A stretch of DNA of 57,827 bases, taken from the NCBI GenBank assembly GCA_044229845.1, contig JBGASG010000015.1, positions 1 through 57,827 on the forward strand, written 5' to 3'. Shown one piece after another: positions 39,601 to 46,525 of this stretch. A model generated the notes under the pieces. It did no database searches and had not been told where the DNA came from. It worked only from the letters and a program-made list of their open reading frames with translations. The DNA is from Candidatus Obscuribacteraceae bacterium. GTDB lineage: Bacteria; Cyanobacteriota; Vampirovibrionia; Obscuribacterales; Obscuribacteraceae. Numbering within the stretch: the first letter of the stretch is position 1; each line of letters opens with the position of its first letter. The translations under genes were made by a program, and so were the position numbers.

Positions 39601-40035
39601 GCGTAATTCACCGTCTATGATCTCGTCGAGCAATTGTGCTCGTTCAAGATCGTCGAGCACATCGAACTGCGGGTCCATCAGTGCTTCGGCCGGAAACGCC
39701 CGCAAAATAGATTCGCAAAGAGAATGGATGGTGCCGATGCGGGCCTGGTCGATGCGGGAGAGCAGTTCCAGCCAGCGTTCTTTTTCTGCTCCGGTGGTGG
39801 CGGCAGCGCGTTTCTTCAATTCGCTCTTGAGACGACTGCGCATTTCATCTGCTGCTTTGCGCGTAAAAGTGACAGCGATCAAATTGGTCACAGAGGCGTC
39901 CGGATTGCATTCCAGGACGCGCAAATAACGGCTGACCAGCACGGATGTTTTGCCTGATCCGGCGCCGGCAGAGACCAGCACGTGTTTGTCGATCGACTCG
40001 ACGGCCAGGCGTTGCTCGTCGGTAAGTCTAGTCAT
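36664..40035 (-). CDS. addA: AddA-like UvrD helicase/nuclease
   Basis: AGAGSGKT, TFTRKAA, VDEFQD, GDDKQSIYRF, TIHKSKGLEF, YVAMTRA; C-terminal D...VDFKT nuclease. Confidence 0.92.
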   Translation of the reverse strand: MTRLTDEQRLAVESIDKHVLVSAGAGSGKTSVLVSRYLRVLECNPDASVTNLIAVTFTRKAADEMRSRLKSELKKRAAATTGAEKERWLELLSRIDQARIGTIHSLCESILRAFPAEALMDPQFDVLDDLERAQLLDEIIDGELRGALIREEEHIRKLLEFSASEVSKWLRELVSRPSAYKAARAVSGEPALFERLWMQAASAAFKTVSSSAKLQAAQKQLDTLTSSGKFEANRVQALLLCESLFSPLRPERLHADLQQRLLIADGFAEISFKGTRNAGEIERQIMSAVNCIKDALKKLRKEIPSEKNEADQSAEFCQRALIELADRAIEQFEHLKNQHQKVDFDDLIDRTHALLSQPGSHARRHYHGTLKAILVDEFQDTNKRQAELLSFLVGGDARLFLIGDDKQSIYRFQGADVSTFTEWKERLGSDSESGLLLSLTRSFRSHPGIVLFVNAMFEKLFSVDDRFEARHQALVAARPEPLGDQNIEIVLLSSDEGVDEKLSSQAFNELESQAIAAWIHEKVAAHAPVLDKELGQQRPIQFCDFAVLVQNNSDFAPIEMALADAGIPYVTMSGAGYLNRQEIFDLENLLKFLSAPEDSHALLGVLRSPMFGVPDDVIHSLHQTNRSLWSRLRKAGLQEECSYTGVQRAVSVLRELLRGSAQMPLVELVRYALQLTQYDLILSALPNGKQRSRNVWKFLSLAAQHAERSVRGFLEMLDSMRNLSVKAGDAPLAADNAVQLMTIHKSKGLEFGAVALPTLSKRFHKGDRKIIFSEEYGIAVDARGLDDEQRPASFTLAGTIERQMEAAEKKRLLYVAMTRARDYLGLFMQAQVSPQHPSFRTLIKDTLELDDEPATTAHYSLVQLTPLVVRSNLENFKAAEAVTISQRSNSADPVSFSFIEPLAEQPDCAEFNVPFEHLLRVTPDKRPLHATVIGSFFHAVMESLPKDLSLPDRERLSELAGNSTLSGVVHRARRQELVIEAEQMLRVFCDSQLYRLMAGARERLHEVPYFALREPDAEAPGSLQPARVEEKRPDLLLQDSYGEWHIVDFKTDHIDEMEIEKHNRAHADQINEYVRDFETLVNAPVKGWVYYAHHGLLVQLDKPAAPIQLKIIVSPAAPAPHLK

Positions 40036-43000
40036 AACTGAGAGTCTCCTCCGCGCTTACCTGCGCGTGCCGCAGTTCACTGATGCGGCAGACCTGCTTG
40101 TGGTCGCAAGTTTTGCAGACGTCGAATGTCGCGGGTTGCACTTGAAAGTCGCCTCGGGAAGCATCACGGACGAAATTCTCCACGTGCCGGCGAGTGATGT
40201 TCGGGATCTCCATATGTGCTTCGGTCTTGAACTGAAAGTTGCCGGCCACTTTTGCTTGTCTGACGCTCAGATAACTGGCGCTGGCGACCCGGCTTCCTGG
40301 AATAATGCTGACTTCAACAGCCAGTGCATACAGAGGCAGTTGAATATTGGTGCCTCTGACGGCGTCGTCCGGTTTCATGGGGCTGGAGCCGCTCTTGTAG
40401 TCAACCAGATGGACCTCGGGCGTAGTTTGTCCCGGTGCAGTTTCTCCTTGGGTGTGCGCAGCTGATGACACCAGGTCGATGCGATCGATTGCTCCCGAGA
40501 TTTTGATATTGCCAGAGTCGGTTTTGAGCACCAGGGGTGGTAGCGAGTCCGGTCCGCGCCGTCCGAATTTCACTTCGAACCGCGCCGGTTGCCCGATGTT
40601 TTTGCGCACCTGGCTTTCCCACTGCAGAAAGCGTTTCAGACGCAGGCGCATGTCCTGTTTCTCGTTGGACCAGTACGGTCCGGGATTGAAGTCTTGCTGT
40701 TGTGCGAGCCACGTCAGACCGGATGCCAGTGCCAGTTCGAATATGTCATCACGGACACCTGTACGGTGGTCTATATTTTTTTCGTTCAACTGCCGGTAAT
40801 AATCTTCGAGCACCTTGTGATAGGCCAGCCCTTGCAGCTTTGCGGAGAGTGCCGTGCCGCCCTCGACTCGCGGTTGCACTTGCAACACTCCCGAGAGCCA
40901 GTACTTGAAGGGGCACTGTCCATAATTATTGAGCTGAGTCGCACTCCATGAGTCTTTGGCAGCGATTGTCAGTGCCTGCGATTCGACCAGTGGTACCAGA
41001 TAACCGTTGTATGTGTTTTGCGGATTACCGAAAAGACGGCTGACGCCGGCTGTTACGGCATCGCTGAGACTTTCCCATAGACCTTCGATGGCTGGCTGAT
41101 CTGCAAGTTCAGGCGGCAGTTGCATGTCGAGCAGGCGATTTTGATGCCACAGCCAGCCTCCAATAGCGTCGCGTGCTGAGGCCGGCTTTTGCAGGGCGCG
41201 TGCCATGGGCTCGGTGAGCGGGACATTTGCATCAGCGACACCCTGCGCTTCGGCGACAAAGAACGATGGGATTTTTTCGTCGCCACCCATTTCGAATTGT
41301 GGAAATGAAAGTGTCACCCTGTCGCTGCGGGCGTAAAGCGATCGGTAAAGAGCTGCTTCAAAGCCCGGCTCGCCGCGCGGGTTTTTCAGATCGATATTGA
41401 AGGTGCTCCAGCGCGCCAGTTCGTCTTGCCCGGCAAAACCTGCCTGCCCGCCGCGCCGGGGAAATTCGCCCTCCACAAGTCCGGCAATGAAAACGTGCGA
41501 GAATCCGCGGTTTGGAGCTGTGTCCGCGGACGTAATCAAAACGGCCTCGCCGGTACCGCGGGCGGTGAACGAGCCCCGGGAGAGCAGCGGCTCCAGTTTG
41601 GTCAGAAACTCCTTAAAGCTCAAAGAAGGCAGATCAAATAACTGTTCTTCTTCGATCAAGATCTGCAGGCAGCGGCGCAGCGCCTTCTCGCCCTGGCGAG
41701 ACTGCTGCACCAATTTGCTGCGCGCATCAGTGGTTTTGCCCGAAGGCAGCGTCAAAAGGTTATCGAGCAGATCTTCGAGCGCGCCGACATGCTGAGTGCA
41801 GGTTGCCGGTGTGTTCAGAGCATTGAGGTGAGCAAAGAATTTCTCCATGCCGGCGCGGACGTCGCTTCTGCCCACGGACAACAACTTTTGCCATTGTTCT
41901 TTGCCGCCGACGATGGCGCGCTCCAGGCTTTTCGCATCGAGATAGTCGACATCGGCAGGAGTCATCTCCAGCGATTGGGTGTTCAAGAATTTGCTGCGCA
42001 GGCAGGAGATGGTTTTCGCGCGAGGGAAGTCGCCCTGTCCGGCCTCACCGGTGAGAGGCAGCGAAAGCAAGTCGAGGACAAATTGAATGAAGGGCAACTC
42101 TTCGTAGGCGATGCTCAGATCGAGGTAATAGGGCACGCCTGCTTGCTGGAACGCTGCTTCCACCGCGCCGCGGTATTTGTCGATCTGGCGGGCCACAACC
42201 AGGAGACGAGAGGGGCGGACTTTGTCCTTGTGAATAGCTTCCTTGCAGCGGGCGGCGATCTCCTGCATTTCGGCGAAACGGTCGAGCGCGCGAAAGACCT
42301 CGATGTGTTCGCCCGTGGTGGACACCGCTTTCGCCGTCTCCATTCCGTGCCGAATGATTTGCGGATTCATATGAAGCTCCAGATTGGCAAAGCTGGAAGC
42401 GTTCCATTCATAGGTGGGACCGCCATGCGCCTCGGCAGTGGTCTCGACATAGTCGAAGGTCATCCAGACTTGCTCGGCGTAGCGGGGTAATCCGGCAATG
42501 ATATCGGCTTGCAACGGGCTTATGCGGTCGAAGCCGTCAATCAGAATCATGCCTTTGTGGAAGTTATCCAGGCGGCGAGCGAAGAGTGCTTCGCGGGCTT
42601 CGAAAGCGATTCGTTTTTGATCGATGACCTGCAACCGATCGAGTTCGCGCCAGTACGCATCATATATGGTGGCAAGCTCGACATAACGCGACTGTTCAGC
42701 TGAACTGGCAGAGAGTCTCGATAGCACATCGTTTGGCGTGTAGCCGGCTCGCTGAAATTCATCGATTAGTTTGAGCAGGGCAGAGCTGGTGCCGGGAAAG
42801 CCGACCAGCTTCGATAAGTGTTGCAACCGATCGGTAGCGCGCATCTGGGAGAGAACCGTGCCCAGCACCAGCGCGCGCAAATCTTCCGGAAGCGCTCGAT
42901 AGCGAATCTGCGACGCCTTGAGCACGGATTCGCAAAATGGATAGAATGCCTCGATCTGCAAATTGAAGGCAATCTTCAGCGCATGCTCTTCGAGCATGGC

Positions 43001-43153
43001 ACCGATATGGCGCTGCGTAATCAGTCGATGACGAGCCGAAGGCACAACAACGGTACAAGGCGAAAGAGGATGGCTCTTTTTGAATGCCACCAGCTCCGCG
43101 AGCAAACGTTTCGTTTTGCCAGACTTGTAAGGACCGATCAGTAATTTGACCAT
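40028..43153 (-). CDS. addB: AddB-like PD-(D/E)XK nuclease subunit
   Basis: GPYKSGKT, IDGF, SATQL..Y..CPF, GAIDRID, VDYKSG, QL.LY, C..C.....C Fe-S motif; overlaps the addA start. Confidence 0.88.
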   Translation of the reverse strand: MVKLLIGPYKSGKTKRLLAELVAFKKSHPLSPCTVVVPSARHRLITQRHIGAMLEEHALKIAFNLQIEAFYPFCESVLKASQIRYRALPEDLRALVLGTVLSQMRATDRLQHLSKLVGFPGTSSALLKLIDEFQRAGYTPNDVLSRLSASSAEQSRYVELATIYDAYWRELDRLQVIDQKRIAFEAREALFARRLDNFHKGMILIDGFDRISPLQADIIAGLPRYAEQVWMTFDYVETTAEAHGGPTYEWNASSFANLELHMNPQIIRHGMETAKAVSTTGEHIEVFRALDRFAEMQEIAARCKEAIHKDKVRPSRLLVVARQIDKYRGAVEAAFQQAGVPYYLDLSIAYEELPFIQFVLDLLSLPLTGEAGQGDFPRAKTISCLRSKFLNTQSLEMTPADVDYLDAKSLERAIVGGKEQWQKLLSVGRSDVRAGMEKFFAHLNALNTPATCTQHVGALEDLLDNLLTLPSGKTTDARSKLVQQSRQGEKALRRCLQILIEEEQLFDLPSLSFKEFLTKLEPLLSRGSFTARGTGEAVLITSADTAPNRGFSHVFIAGLVEGEFPRRGGQAGFAGQDELARWSTFNIDLKNPRGEPGFEAALYRSLYARSDRVTLSFPQFEMGGDEKIPSFFVAEAQGVADANVPLTEPMARALQKPASARDAIGGWLWHQNRLLDMQLPPELADQPAIEGLWESLSDAVTAGVSRLFGNPQNTYNGYLVPLVESQALTIAAKDSWSATQLNNYGQCPFKYWLSGVLQVQPRVEGGTALSAKLQGLAYHKVLEDYYRQLNEKNIDHRTGVRDDIFELALASGLTWLAQQQDFNPGPYWSNEKQDMRLRLKRFLQWESQVRKNIGQPARFEVKFGRRGPDSLPPLVLKTDSGNIKISGAIDRIDLVSSAAHTQGETAPGQTTPEVHLVDYKSGSSPMKPDDAVRGTNIQLPLYALAVEVSIIPGSRVASASYLSVRQAKVAGNFQFKTEAHMEIPNITRRHVENFVRDASRGDFQVQPATFDVCKTCDHKQVCRISELRHAQVSAEETLSYD

Positions 43154-43289
43154 TGGTGCTACCCTTACCCGCCGTTCACCGCGGGGAAGGATAGCACCGT
43201 CGGCGGAGCGGGCTGTTGGAAAAAGTAGAGTTGCATACACAAAAGATCTATGATATACATATGTATGGTTCTCGCGAAAAACAAGCTGG

Positions 43290-43444
43290 GGACTGCAGGG
43301 CGGGGCTCGCCCGATGAGCCTGTGGAGGAGACGTAAGACCAGAAGAAATTCTGGCAGCTTCGATGAAGCAGGAACCCACCGTGTCGGCGTTCATCTCGAA
43401 CTCCTAGTCGGAATCCCCTTCTTTCCGGAAGGGGAGGAGGTCAA
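43290..43444 (+). ncRNA. IS200/IS605 (tnpB) right-end remnant, i.e. an orphan omega/reRNA scaffold
   Basis: GCCTGTGGAG..GTAAGAC..GATGAAGCAGGAA..GGAATCCCCTTC-TTTCCG-GAAGGGGAGGAGGTCAA; frame reads RAGLAR*ACGGDVRP...SMKQE like a TnpB C-tail; no tnpB ORF; 5' boundary approximate. Confidence 0.8.
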
Positions 43445-43469
43445 CGACTCTGCCACTAGAGCATGCCCT

Positions 43470-43512
43470 GCGTTTCGCTTGCAAGAAACTTAGTTTAGTG
43501 CAAGCGAAACGC
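43470..43512. repeat. 14-bp perfect inverted repeat (hairpin)
   Basis: GCGTTTCGCTTGCA-15 nt-TGCAAGCGAAACGC. Confidence 0.85.
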
Positions 43513-43616
43513 TTATAGCTCGAAAATAGTCTTATGGAGCGGGTCTTCGAGATGGTGCGTTTTTTGGTGCACAAATATTCCTGCTATGCGATCGCAATCT
43601 TTTGGCGATCGAAGTG

Positions 43617-44132
43617 CTATGCGAGATCGTGCACAAAGACATCGGCGACACCTTCGCGAAACGGAATGGTCTTTTCATAAACTGCTCCCAACCGTTTAGC
43701 GACAGCTTTGGATTTCTCATTCTCGGGAACGATTAAGCTGATCAGTCTGTCGAATTGCTTGCTTTGTATGGCGGACAGTTTCACGGCGCCGGCCGCCTCG
43801 CTGGCATATCCTTTGCCCCAAAATTTGGGTGCAATCGACCACATGATCTCAGGACCGGGCCATTCGCCAGGGTAATAGAGTCCGATGGGACCGATCAGTT
43901 CGCCGCTCGACTTCTCCACAACGGCGTAAGGTCCGAACGAGCGAAGCTGCCAATGCCCGACATAGGACGCCAGAATCCGCCAGGTGGCCCATTCGGTCTG
44001 CGGCTGTCCGAGGGTGTAGCGAACGAAGTCTTCGTCGGCAAACATGCGTGCCAGAGGCTGCCAGTCGTCGAGTTCGAACATGCGCAGGTGCAGCCGGTCG
44101 GTTTCCAGAGACGTTGGAATAGTGAACTGCAT
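43617..44132 (-). CDS. GNAT (RimJ/RimL-type) acetyltransferase
   Basis: LETDRLHLR, FWGKGYASEA, ENEKSKAVAKRLG. Confidence 0.93.
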   Translation of the reverse strand: MQFTIPTSLETDRLHLRMFELDDWQPLARMFADEDFVRYTLGQPQTEWATWRILASYVGHWQLRSFGPYAVVEKSSGELIGPIGLYYPGEWPGPEIMWSIAPKFWGKGYASEAAGAVKLSAIQSKQFDRLISLIVPENEKSKAVAKRLGAVYEKTIPFREGVADVFVHDLA

Positions 44133-45714: not shown

Positions 45715-45913
45715 AAATTGTGCGCCGCGTGCGCGCCGAAACGAGCCGCAAATGTGGTAACGAAAATACGATCGTATTAAAATAAATCTGGGAGCCCGCG
45801 AGTGAATCAATTCAACTTGCCCTATTCATCATGCCCAGCTAGTAATCTATTGCCTCCCACAGTCGTTATCAAATAAGGGCGCTTCCTTCCGTTAAACAGG
45901 AGGTGACACTCTT

Positions 45914-46525
45914 TTGGCTACCGCAAAACTAAGGAAATTCCTCGAGAAATTGCAGGATGGCGATATGTTTGCCGCGCGAGATGTGCTGCACCTGCATCGA
46001 CGAGCCAATACCGTATATGGTGCGTTGTACAGGCTCGCGAAGGCGGGAGCGATTTTTCGCGTCGCTCAAGGTCTGTATATAAAGGGAAACGAACGCACCC
46101 CGAAACCTACCATTGCCCAGATAGCCCATGCTAAAGCGGAGGCATTCTGCAAAACAATAACCGACATCAGCGCTGAGTTCGCGCGGGCTATGGGTATCGA
46201 GTTCGAAGCAAAGTCTGAGGCGATCTTTGCCACAAATGGCCGCAGCAGCCTGATTCAATCATGCCATGGTCCGATTCAGTTTGTCGGTGCCTCCTTGCGG
46301 AAGACTGCTCTGCAGGATTCGCCATTAGGCATTCAGCTGCGCACAATGTGGCATCTGGGACGTCATGCCGATCCGGCTCCATTTGTGCAGATGGCTGTCA
46401 CGCAATGGTCGGAGGTCGACTGGGACGAGAGCAATGCTCGCTTCAAGCTGCTCCCGTATTGGTTGTCCGCAATGCTGGCGCTGCCCCTGATACGTCCAGG
46501 CAATGGGGCATTCCTGTTGGAATGA
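45914..46525 (+). CDS. AbiEi/DUF6088-like winged-helix protein (type IV antitoxin-like), no toxin partner
   Basis: GDMFAARD...ALYRLAKAGAIFRVAQGLY...P...IA.A.A...TNGRS; AGGAGGTGA RBS before TTG. Confidence 0.75.
   Translation: MATAKLRKFLEKLQDGDMFAARDVLHLHRRANTVYGALYRLAKAGAIFRVAQGLYIKGNERTPKPTIAQIAHAKAEAFCKTITDISAEFARAMGIEFEAKSEAIFATNGRSSLIQSCHGPIQFVGASLRKTALQDSPLGIQLRTMWHLGRHADPAPFVQMAVTQWSEVDWDESNARFKLLPYWLSAMLALPLIRPGNGAFLLE

What the first reader, a model, noticed from the sequence alone, without database searches (positions are those of the whole stretch)
43231..43512. Stand-alone TnpB omega-RNA cassette with promoter-like upstream region, guide and hairpin but no tnpB/tnpA
Seen: the conserved blocks of an IS200/IS605 tnpB right end (GCCTGTGGAG, GTAAGAC, GAAGCAGGAA, terminal hairpin, GGTCAA end at 43444). 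An AT-rich promoter-like stretch precedes it (TTGCAT 43231, TATGAT 43249, palindrome ATACATATGTAT 43255-43266). About 25 nt (CGACTCTGCCACTAGAGCATG...) and a 14-bp stem follow it. Only a stop-interrupted TnpB C-tail remains. Established: the omega-RNA overlaps the tnpB 3' end and its flank serves as the guide, and nuclease-dead TldR proteins use such guides to repress transcription. Inference: a retained trans-acting guide-RNA gene or a non-autonomous element, divergent from the addBA repair operon.
Basis: partly seen in the sequence, partly recalled or inferred. Interest (0 to 1): 0.8.

Follow-up and report, generated by a model that had tools for sequence, protein, structure and literature searches.

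The report
Mini-transposon with SOS-boxed guide RNA
This is a 294-base, protein-free jumping element that carries only a guide RNA for a borrowed DNA-cutting enzyme, sits inside the start of a DNA-repair gene, and has a promoter with what looks like the host's DNA-damage switch, so the guide may be made mainly when the element risks being lost.

Summary
The omega-RNA is real, but it is one part of a 294-bp non-autonomous IS200/IS605 element (PATE), window 43151-43444. The element has a left end, lies 3' of TTGAC and has no target duplication. A same-genus genome holds the precise empty site, so the 'guide' and the 14-bp stem are host DNA. No TldR and no second guide target were found. The element interrupts addB after codon 4 and supplies an in-frame ATG. 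The genome holds four sister copies, and at least nine more occur in related genera; their RNA fold shows compensatory changes. New: the palindrome at 43255-43266 (ATAC-N4-GTAT) is the motif upstream of lexA in 27 of 29 family loci and of error-prone dnaE2 (15 of 29 exact), so it is probably this lineage's LexA box. It overlaps the -10 element of all five copies, and related tnpB-only elements carry a weaker version. Best reading: an SOS-inducible, protein-free omega-RNA that uses TnpA and TnpB in trans to keep its element in place. This copy's left-end DNA guide is overwritten, so it is probably immobile. PATEs with omega-RNAs are known; LexA control of tnpB or omega-RNA was not found in five literature searches. 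LexA binding and induction are untested.

The parts
43146..43150 (+). Target/TAM TTGAC (host DNA, left junction)
   Evidence: Empty allele in G001 reads TTGAC joined directly to the right flank; IS605 copies and minis in G000 follow NTGAC
43151..43444 (+). Whole non-autonomous IS200/IS605 element (PATE), 294 bp, no target duplication
   Evidence: Filled versus empty alignment L013/L020
43151..43208 (+). Left end: sub-terminal hairpin 43155-43198 plus the family block GGATAGCACCGYCGGCGG. The DNA guide (CAAG in intact NTGAC relatives, about 43162-43166) is replaced by the complement of the downstream arm
   Evidence: Left-end table; family search; fold
43151..43153 (-). Element-supplied in-frame ATG for addB (MVKLLIGPY...), with a Shine-Dalgarno-like AAGGGU inside the left-end hairpin
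   Evidence: Translation; orthologue N-termini; fold buries the SD
43231..43259 (+). Promoter-like block: -35-like TTGCAT, 17-nt spacer, TG-extended -10-like TATACA (lacks the last T)
   Evidence: Occurs 5 times in the genome, once per mini-element; same geometry as lexA promoters; not called by the sigma-70 scan
43255..43266 (.). Palindrome ATAC-ATAT-GTAT: predicted LexA (SOS) operator
   Evidence: Upstream of lexA in 27 of 29 loci, dnaE2 15 of 29 exact; matrix rank 2 in the genome
43267..43294 (+). Predicted 5' hairpin of the stand-alone RNA (structure kept, sequence variable)
   Evidence: Hairpin predicted in 13 of 14 minis; 3 of 8 pairs with double changes
43296..43444 (+). TnpB omega-RNA scaffold, including right-end guide GAAT (43411-43414), right-end hairpin (43414-43435) and terminal TCAA (43441-43444)
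   Evidence: Rfam; alignment with tnpB-overlapping omega-RNAs; covariation
43445..43460 (+). 16-nt guide = host flank = antisense of the first codons of addB (native GTG at 43456-43454, - strand)
   Evidence: Present in the empty allele with differences at guide positions 1, 5 and 9
43470..43512 (.). 14-bp stem: host hairpin between the GNAT gene and addB, not part of the element
   Evidence: Identical in the empty allele
40028..43153 (-). addB (AddB_N + PD-(D/E)XK), interrupted after its fourth codon
   Evidence: Pfam

Best explanation
A protein-free IS200/IS605 element (PATE) derived from an IS1341-type (tnpB-only) transposon by loss of tnpB, leaving left end, promoter and omega-RNA/right end. 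SHOWN: ends, TAM, empty sites, a family across genera, RNA covariation, and a promoter palindrome shared with lexA, dnaE2, ssb and rmuC. INFERRED: (1) TnpA of the co-resident IS605 mobilised the family in trans. (2) Host LexA represses the promoter, so the RNA (about +1 at 43265-43267, running into the flank) is made mainly during DNA damage, when single-stranded DNA makes peel-and-paste excision likely. (3) The RNA loads the IS605 TnpB (same NTGAC motif) and cuts the empty TTGAC+flank joint, so that recombination restores the element. (4) This copy has lost its left-end DNA guide and is probably locked in; it is tolerated in addB because it supplies a start codon. Approximate odds by step: PATE 0.97, palindrome is the LexA box 0.8, RNA is a working guide in trans 0.7.
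For: Precise empty sites in G001 for C7, C18 and C3. TAM and left-end guide co-vary across the family, NTGAC with CAAG and TTAC with AAAG. Ten minis: 95.3% of cells paired, 12 of 45 pairs with double changes, 0 of 500 shuffles as high, slid controls at most 56.8% paired. ATAC-N4-GTAT was the top spaced palindrome in an unbiased count upstream of lexA, 27 of 29 against 9 for the next. Upstream of dnaE2: 15 of 29 exact and 20 of 29 within one mismatch, against 0 and 1 in coding controls. Its position relative to -35/-10 differs between lexA and dnaE2, as for an operator. A matrix built from other genomes' lexA and dnaE2 sites ranks G000 lexA 25.3, this copy 24.6, C13 24.6, C19 24.1, dnaE2 23.5. 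G000 LexA passes TIGR00498. Cyanobacterial LexA boxes are similar (PMC3091678). The box lies within one mismatch in 9 of 14 tnpB-free model hits from other genera, 4 of 8 tnpB-only elements and 0 of 10 tnpA+tnpB elements. RNA-library contigs cover 43202-43452 (X15) and 43305-43539 (X18), plus a contig of the C19 copy that begins 6 nt into its 5' hairpin.
Against: No binding, induction or cleavage data. The box is not conserved upstream of recA (3 of 28, mostly off-position), nrdA (0 of 29 exact) or addB (0 of 26). The -10 lacks its last T and the promoter scan is negative. The X15 contig starts about 65 nt upstream of the predicted +1; contigs are unstranded and may be DNA. The covariation could be inherited from active ancestors, and the structure was derived from the same alignment. 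The RNA's middle resembles the IS1341 copy (TTAC type, frameshifted in G000) more than the IS605 copies, so loading by the IS605 TnpB is unproven. Several copies are decayed (C3 lacks the RNA core; C18 and C19 lack the left hairpin). With its left guide lost, this copy may rarely produce a target.
Confidence: 0.6

Rival explanations
1. Ordinary PATE: a decaying deletion product whose promoter and RNA fold are inherited leftovers; the RNA is not used by TnpB, and the palindrome is passive or only keeps the element quiet.
For: Copies are 72-84% alike and carry various lesions; 3 further loci keep left end and promoter with a decayed RNA; heterogeneous PATEs are described (PMC3119063).
Against: Double changes also occur in the 5' hairpin, which TnpA is not known to need; the box is closer to consensus in minis than in the tnpB-bearing parents; a second mini lineage has the box in the dnaE2 geometry (L140).
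Confidence: 0.22
2. The palindrome is bound by another regulator: an IS605-encoded Arc/RHH repressor or a different damage regulator, not LexA.
For: Arc represses IS605 promoters (10.64898/2026.09.24.754181); the box is missing upstream of recA.
Against: None of 8 RHH hits lies next to a tnpB in G000; the motif is fixed upstream of host lexA and dnaE2 in genomes with no detected mini.
Confidence: 0.1
3. This copy is partly domesticated as a cis control element of addBA: it supplies the start codon, a hairpin over the ribosome site, a cis-antisense RNA and possibly an SOS operator for leftward transcription.
For: In-frame ATG gives a normal N-terminus; SD buried in a 12-bp stem; left guide lost; filled allele in DNA run X13 with no joint.
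Against: The C18 copy has the same CATTG start, so the ATG predates this insertion; addB orthologues have no box; G001 lacks the element.
Confidence: 0.05
4. Trans-acting guide gene for a nuclease-dead TldR repressor.
For: Dedicated promoter; left end apparently inactivated; the genome is only 88% complete.
Against: No TldR-like gene; guides differ between copies and equal their flanks; no TAM-adjacent target with under 4 mismatches for this guide; empty site in the relative.
Confidence: 0.03

Closest known systems
PATEs (palindrome-associated transposable elements; PMC3119063 passages; PATE-like elements in Geobacillus, PMC10055086 passages)
   Same: No ORF, sub-terminal palindromes of IS605 type, no inverted repeats, no target duplication, strain-specific insertions, heterogeneous copies. 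PMC10055086 states PATEs often encode omega-RNAs acted on in trans by TnpB.
   Different: A conserved internal promoter with a host operator and a 5' hairpin on the RNA; recurrent overwriting of the left DNA guide; insertion that replaces a host start codon.
Standalone omega-RNAs (PMC10691335 passage) and PATE-derived RNA VNG_R0052 / HgcC family (PMC4615843 passages)
   Same: Mobile omega-RNA without effector or transposase; weak HgcC match; a transcribed PATE is on record.
   Different: No operator described in the passages read; here the RNA promoter carries the lexA/dnaE2 palindrome.
IS1341-type tnpB-only elements of the same bacterial family (L135, L146, L147, L156, L295, L296)
   Same: Similar left end, mostly NTGAC/CAAG, TTGC...GTATGG promoter with a degenerate box, related right end.
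   Different: They keep tnpB (403 aa in four; L147 and L296 are broken). The direct parent of the minis was not sampled.
LexA-controlled mobile genes: ISCR1/2/8 transposases (PMC13393415 passages); integron integrases (PMC3108266, listing and abstract start only)
   Same: LexA box overlapping the -10 of a promoter in a mobile element; ISCR also uses a HUH single-strand enzyme.
   Different: There the mobilising enzyme is controlled; here the retention module (omega-RNA, tnpB) is, and tnpA-bearing elements lack the box (0 of 10).
TldR guide RNAs (10.1101/2023.11.30.569447 passages)
   Same: TnpB-type scaffold followed by a short guide.
   Different: TldR loci have a dead TnpB next to the RNA, conserved guides aimed at promoters, and (in the fliC-linked clade) no transposon ends; none of this holds here.

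Membership tests
PATE (IS200/IS605 non-autonomous) | Too short for a transposase; no intact tnpA/tnpB | tested here: met
   294 bp; only a 30-codon TnpB tail with a stop
PATE (IS200/IS605 non-autonomous) | Sub-terminal palindromes related to IS605 ends | tested here: met
   Left hairpin 43155-43198 and right hairpin with GAAT...TCAA, matching co-resident IS605/IS1341 ends
PATE (IS200/IS605 non-autonomous) | Insertion 3' of a fixed motif, no target duplication | tested here: met
   Precise empty sites in G001 for 3 of 5 copies; 1 shared; 1 locus replaced by other sequence
PATE (IS200/IS605 non-autonomous) | Mobilisable in trans by TnpA | tested here: inconclusive
   Family: TAM/guide covariation and three intact tnpA genes in G000. 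This copy: left guide overwritten, which abolishes excision in ISGst2 (PMC10055086)
TnpB omega-RNA | Scaffold overlapping the tnpB 3' end/right end with conserved structure | tested here: met
   Aligns with tnpB-overlapping RNAs; covariation among minis. Rfam hits are below the gathering scores
TnpB omega-RNA | Transcribed on the + strand into the flank | tested here: inconclusive
   Unstranded RNA-library contigs cover it in 2 of 3 RNA runs laid
TnpB omega-RNA | Binds TnpB and guides TAM-dependent cleavage | not testable with these tools
   Needs RIP-seq and interference assays
LexA (SOS) operator | Palindrome conserved upstream of lexA | tested here: met
   27 of 29 loci
LexA (SOS) operator | Present at other SOS genes | tested here: inconclusive
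   Met for dnaE2 across the family and for ssb, rmuC, nrdB (lhr and nrdA with one mismatch) in G000; not met for recA
LexA (SOS) operator | Bound by LexA, released on damage | not testable with these tools
   Needs EMSA or reporter
TldR guide RNA | Adjacent or cognate nuclease-dead TnpB | tested here: not met
   Four tnpB genes only, both types with D-E-D; genome 88% complete
TldR guide RNA | Conserved guide matching a TAM-flanked host promoter | tested here: not met
   Guide equals flank; best other site has 4 mismatches in 16

The most novel reading that the evidence does not exclude
IS200/IS605 retention is wired into the host SOS response. In this bacterial family, tnpB-only elements and at least two lineages of protein-free minis put tnpB/omega-RNA under a previously undescribed LexA box (ATAC-N4-GTAT), so RNA-guided cutting and repair switch on exactly when damage-made single-stranded DNA lets TnpA peel the element out. 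Copies that then lose their left DNA guide become immobile RNA-only homing cassettes that use borrowed TnpB to cut empty alleles arriving by recombination from neighbouring species; the three guide mismatches in G001's empty addB allele would be a trace of that conflict.
Probability: 0.4. Interest if true: 0.8.

Novelty: new variant of a known kind. Interest (0 to 1): 0.6.

Why it matters
How cells or elements time TnpB/omega-RNA activity is open: ISDra2 excision rises after irradiation without induction of tnpA (PMC2806898), and Arc repression of IS605 promoters was reported only in a 2026 preprint. A host LexA box on the retention module would tie RNA-guided transposon maintenance to DNA damage, and it can be tested with three short plasmids. 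The work also yields a candidate LexA box and SOS regulon for an uncultured non-photosynthetic cyanobacterial family, and a case of a 294-bp element replacing the start codon of a recombination-repair gene.

Tried and rejected
TldR: not found with PF07282, PF01385, PF12323 or tblastn. Distant guide target: the 17 of 18 match at C19:114318 has E 6.8 and no TAM; the TAM-anchored search was negative. Conserved small ORF in the minis: frames differ between copies (read). The promoter palindrome as an RNA hairpin: its inner letters vary without pairing, so it was read as a DNA site. Wider distribution: an exact scaffold pattern gave 1 GTDB hit (L050, a C19-type copy), 2 metagenome hits that are chance matches and 0 viral hits. 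The promoter pattern gave 0 of 204 genomes outside the family. These patterns are narrow and show only 'not found in those searched'. RNA runs: none of the 3 laid covered 42600-43200, and X16 covered only 43539-43811; lack of cover in contigs is no evidence. Only 3 of 6 listed RNA runs and 1 of 14 DNA holders were laid. Arc/RHH next to tnpB: none. Earlier scan notes: nothing. Guide-flank mismatches as a general pattern: seen at C7 only; C18 differs on both sides and C3 not at all in 18 nt. Supplements were not read; those of the bioRxiv preprints (PATE alignments, Arc motifs) are closed and could bear on novelty.

Full report
OBSERVATION. Rfam gives weak matches to HgcC (30.5 bits, gathering score 50) and RAGATH-18 (25.4, gathering score 44.9). 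PMC4615843 (passages read) links HgcC to IS1341 right-end RNAs; that RAGATH-18 is a TnpB-linked RNA is recalled, not from a call. A 30-codon TnpB tail matches the genome's own TnpB at 80%.

IT IS A WHOLE MOBILE ELEMENT. Of 40 related genomes searched with the region, 1 matched: G001, same genus. Its orthologous locus is 97.8-98.7% identical on both flanks and lacks exactly window 43151-43444, with TTGAC joined to the right flank and no duplication. So the 'guide' and the 14-bp stem are host DNA. The element starts with a left-end hairpin like those of the co-resident transposons and ends GAAT-hairpin-TCAA. G000 holds four sister minis (C3, C13, C18, C19; 72-84% pairwise identity), three near-identical IS605 copies (tnpA + 403-aa tnpB, inserted after NTGAC), one internally deleted IS605 and one IS1341-type tnpB after TTAC, frameshifted near codon 12. 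G001 has precise empty sites for C18 and C3, shares C19, and has other sequence at C13. The two genomes are a mosaic of 86-100% identity; the 3 shared elements examined lie in tracts of 99.5% or more, which suggests recent exchange. L050, whose title the tool gives as Candidatus Obscuribacterales, holds a C19-type copy; I take that as the taxon of the group.

EFFECT ON addB. In the empty allele the addB frame begins GTG, M-T-G-S-V-K-L-L-I-G-P-Y; the insertion falls after codon 4. On the minus strand the element's first three bases read ATG in frame, giving M-V-K-L-L-I-G-P-Y. In the 30 loci shown, the conserved part starts at that V/I-x-L-x-x-G-P-Y motif, and in several the start codon lies right there. 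Read-through from the old GTG meets one TGA. The new ribosome site is buried in the left-end stem. C18 starts with the same CATTG, so the ATG is a lucky pre-existing feature.

A FAMILY WITH A CONSERVED RNA. The promoter pattern occurs 5 times in G000, once per mini, and in 8 of 96 other family genomes, 0 of 204 outside the family and 0 in the reversed control. A covariance model of the scaffold hit 14 of 103 family genomes. Complete tnpB-free minis with the same layout occur in G265, G267 (2), G270, G291 (3), G307 and G023, and a second layout in G053 and G307. TAM and left-end DNA guide co-vary (NTGAC with CAAG, TTAC with AAAG), as for active elements in PMC10055086 (passages). Ten of the 14 minis extracted were aligned (C3, L127, L142 and L149 left out as deleted or decayed): 95.3% of cells pair, 12 of 45 pairs show double changes, 0 of 500 shuffles reach this, and slid controls reach at most 56.8%. 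The structure came from the same alignment and kin share changes, so this is support, not proof. A variable-sequence hairpin follows the palindrome in 13 of 14 minis, which marks a likely 5' end near 43266. In this copy and in L131 (another genus, other RNA subtype) the left guide is overwritten by the complement of the downstream arm. Mutating that guide abolished excision in PMC10055086, so this copy is probably immobile.

THE PALINDROME IS PROBABLY THE LexA BOX. I noticed the same ATAC-N4-GTAT upstream of G000 lexA (TIGR00498 168 bits). In an unbiased count of spaced palindromes upstream of 29 lexA loci (30 fetched, G001 dropped) it came first, 27 of 29 against 9 for the next; one miss was out of register in my script and the other is from a genome with two lexA-like hits. 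Upstream of error-prone dnaE2 it is exact in 15 of 29 and within one mismatch in 20 of 29, against 0 and 1 in coding controls (G001 dropped). There it lies between -35 and -10, whereas at lexA and in the minis it overlaps -10. In G000, 27 exact sites include the five minis, lexA, dnaE2, ssb, rmuC and nrdB; several others precede unrelated or unannotated genes. A matrix from 26 lexA and 19 dnaE2 sites of other genomes (picked with the motif, so not fully independent) ranks this copy second in the genome, level with C13. Cyanobacterial LexA sites are of the form RGTAC-NNND-GTWCB (PMC3091678 passages). Against: the motif is not conserved upstream of recA (3 of 28; 30 fetched, 2 dropped), nrdA (0 of 29 exact) or addB (0 of 26 exact; 4 dropped, 2 out of register). 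Among model hits: 9 of 14 tnpB-free elements from other genera with upstream DNA carry it within one mismatch (8 exact), 4 of 8 tnpB-only elements do (2 more have two mismatches at the same place), and 0 of 10 tnpA+tnpB elements do. The tnpB-only elements are the likely parents.

EXPRESSION. Six RNA runs held a small share of the region; three were laid. X15 has a contig over 43202-43452. X18 has one over 43305-43539 and one of the C19 copy whose 5' end lies 6 nt into the 5' hairpin. X16 covers only 43539-43811. DNA run X13 holds the filled allele with no joint. Contigs give no strand or level and may be DNA, and the X15 start lies upstream of the predicted +1. This is a weak hint.

MECHANISM. 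Established (passages read): TnpA excises scarlessly and TnpB with the omega-RNA cuts the empty joint, which drives restoration (PMC10055086; 10.1101/2023.11.30.569447); PATEs often encode omega-RNAs used in trans (PMC10055086); standalone omega-RNAs exist (PMC10691335); irradiation triggers ISDra2 excision through single-stranded DNA without transposase induction (PMC2806898). Inferred here: LexA keeps the mini's RNA low and releases it on damage, and the IS605 TnpB, whose NTGAC motif matches, uses it to retain the element. For this copy the only natural target is an empty addB allele. G001's allele differs at guide positions 1, 5 and 9 (binomial p 0.0007-0.002, post hoc, one locus), which may reflect escape; PMC10055086 found TnpB binding tolerant of seed mismatches, so escape is not assured.

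COMPARISON AND NOVELTY. It is a PATE by every feature testable here and is not a TldR guide. LexA control of mobile genes is known for ISCR transposases (PMC13393415 passages), and Arc represses IS605 promoters (10.64898/2026.09.24.754181 passages; no LexA mention). Searches for LexA or SOS control of tnpB/omega-RNA, and for a LexA motif in this lineage (judged from listings and abstract starts) and a find in the review PMC13565253 (0 uses of 'SOS') showed none. The library lacks most subscription papers, and preprint supplements were closed. PMC3119063 was read in passages and PMC11870625 as abstract only.

VERDICT. New variant of a known kind. The predicted SOS control of the RNA and of tnpB-only parents, which is cheap to test, lifts interest to 0.6.

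Noticed in passing
L159-L188 (lexA upstream), L235-L264 (dnaE2 upstream); G000 C15:95399, C1:562436, C1:739388, C8:33430, C3:243091: Candidate LexA box ATAC-N4-GTAT(GG) for this bacterial family, with a predicted regulon of lexA, dnaE2, ssb, rmuC, lhr and nrdAB in G000 but apparently not recA.
   Followed up: partly
L135, L146, L147, L156, L295, L296: IS1341-type tnpB-only elements with a degenerate box at the promoter and a structured 5' leader before tnpB; likely parents of the minis.
   Followed up: partly
L140:1430-1602 (-), L157, L305: Second lineage of protein-free minis (TTAC type, shorter RNA); L140 has the exact box between -35 and -10 as at dnaE2.
   Followed up: partly
L100, L103, L104, L107: The same promoter-plus-box lies upstream of host genes with no RNA (two short coiled-coil ORFs, a methyltransferase-like ORF, one other); either SOS genes or promoters left by decayed minis.
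   Followed up: no
window 43155-43198 and L131:1360-1410: Independent conversion of the left end into a long near-perfect hairpin that erases the DNA guide; looks like template switching and may be a common route to immobilisation.
   Followed up: partly
window 43445-43453 versus L020:1500-1508: Three differences in the first 9 guide positions against about 1.5% local divergence.
   Followed up: partly
L083-L098 versus G000: G000 and G001 are a mosaic of 86-100% identity; the three shared IS elements examined sit in near-identical tracts.
   Followed up: partly
G000:C14:120076-121290 (L001): IS1341-type tnpB is frameshifted near codon 12 in G000 but open in both G001 copies.
   Followed up: yes
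G000:C1:561996-562314 (L030): An internally deleted IS605 copy ends about 120 bp upstream of the dnaE2 SOS box.
   Followed up: no
window 45766-45777: Another exact ATAC-N4-GTAT upstream of a DUF6088/AbiEi-like gene (45914-46525); may be chance or an autoregulatory site.
   Followed up: no
L189-L217, 330-490 nt upstream of the RecA domain: A conserved TTTTATACCC...TTTGAAA element upstream of recA in most loci shown; unexplained.
   Followed up: no
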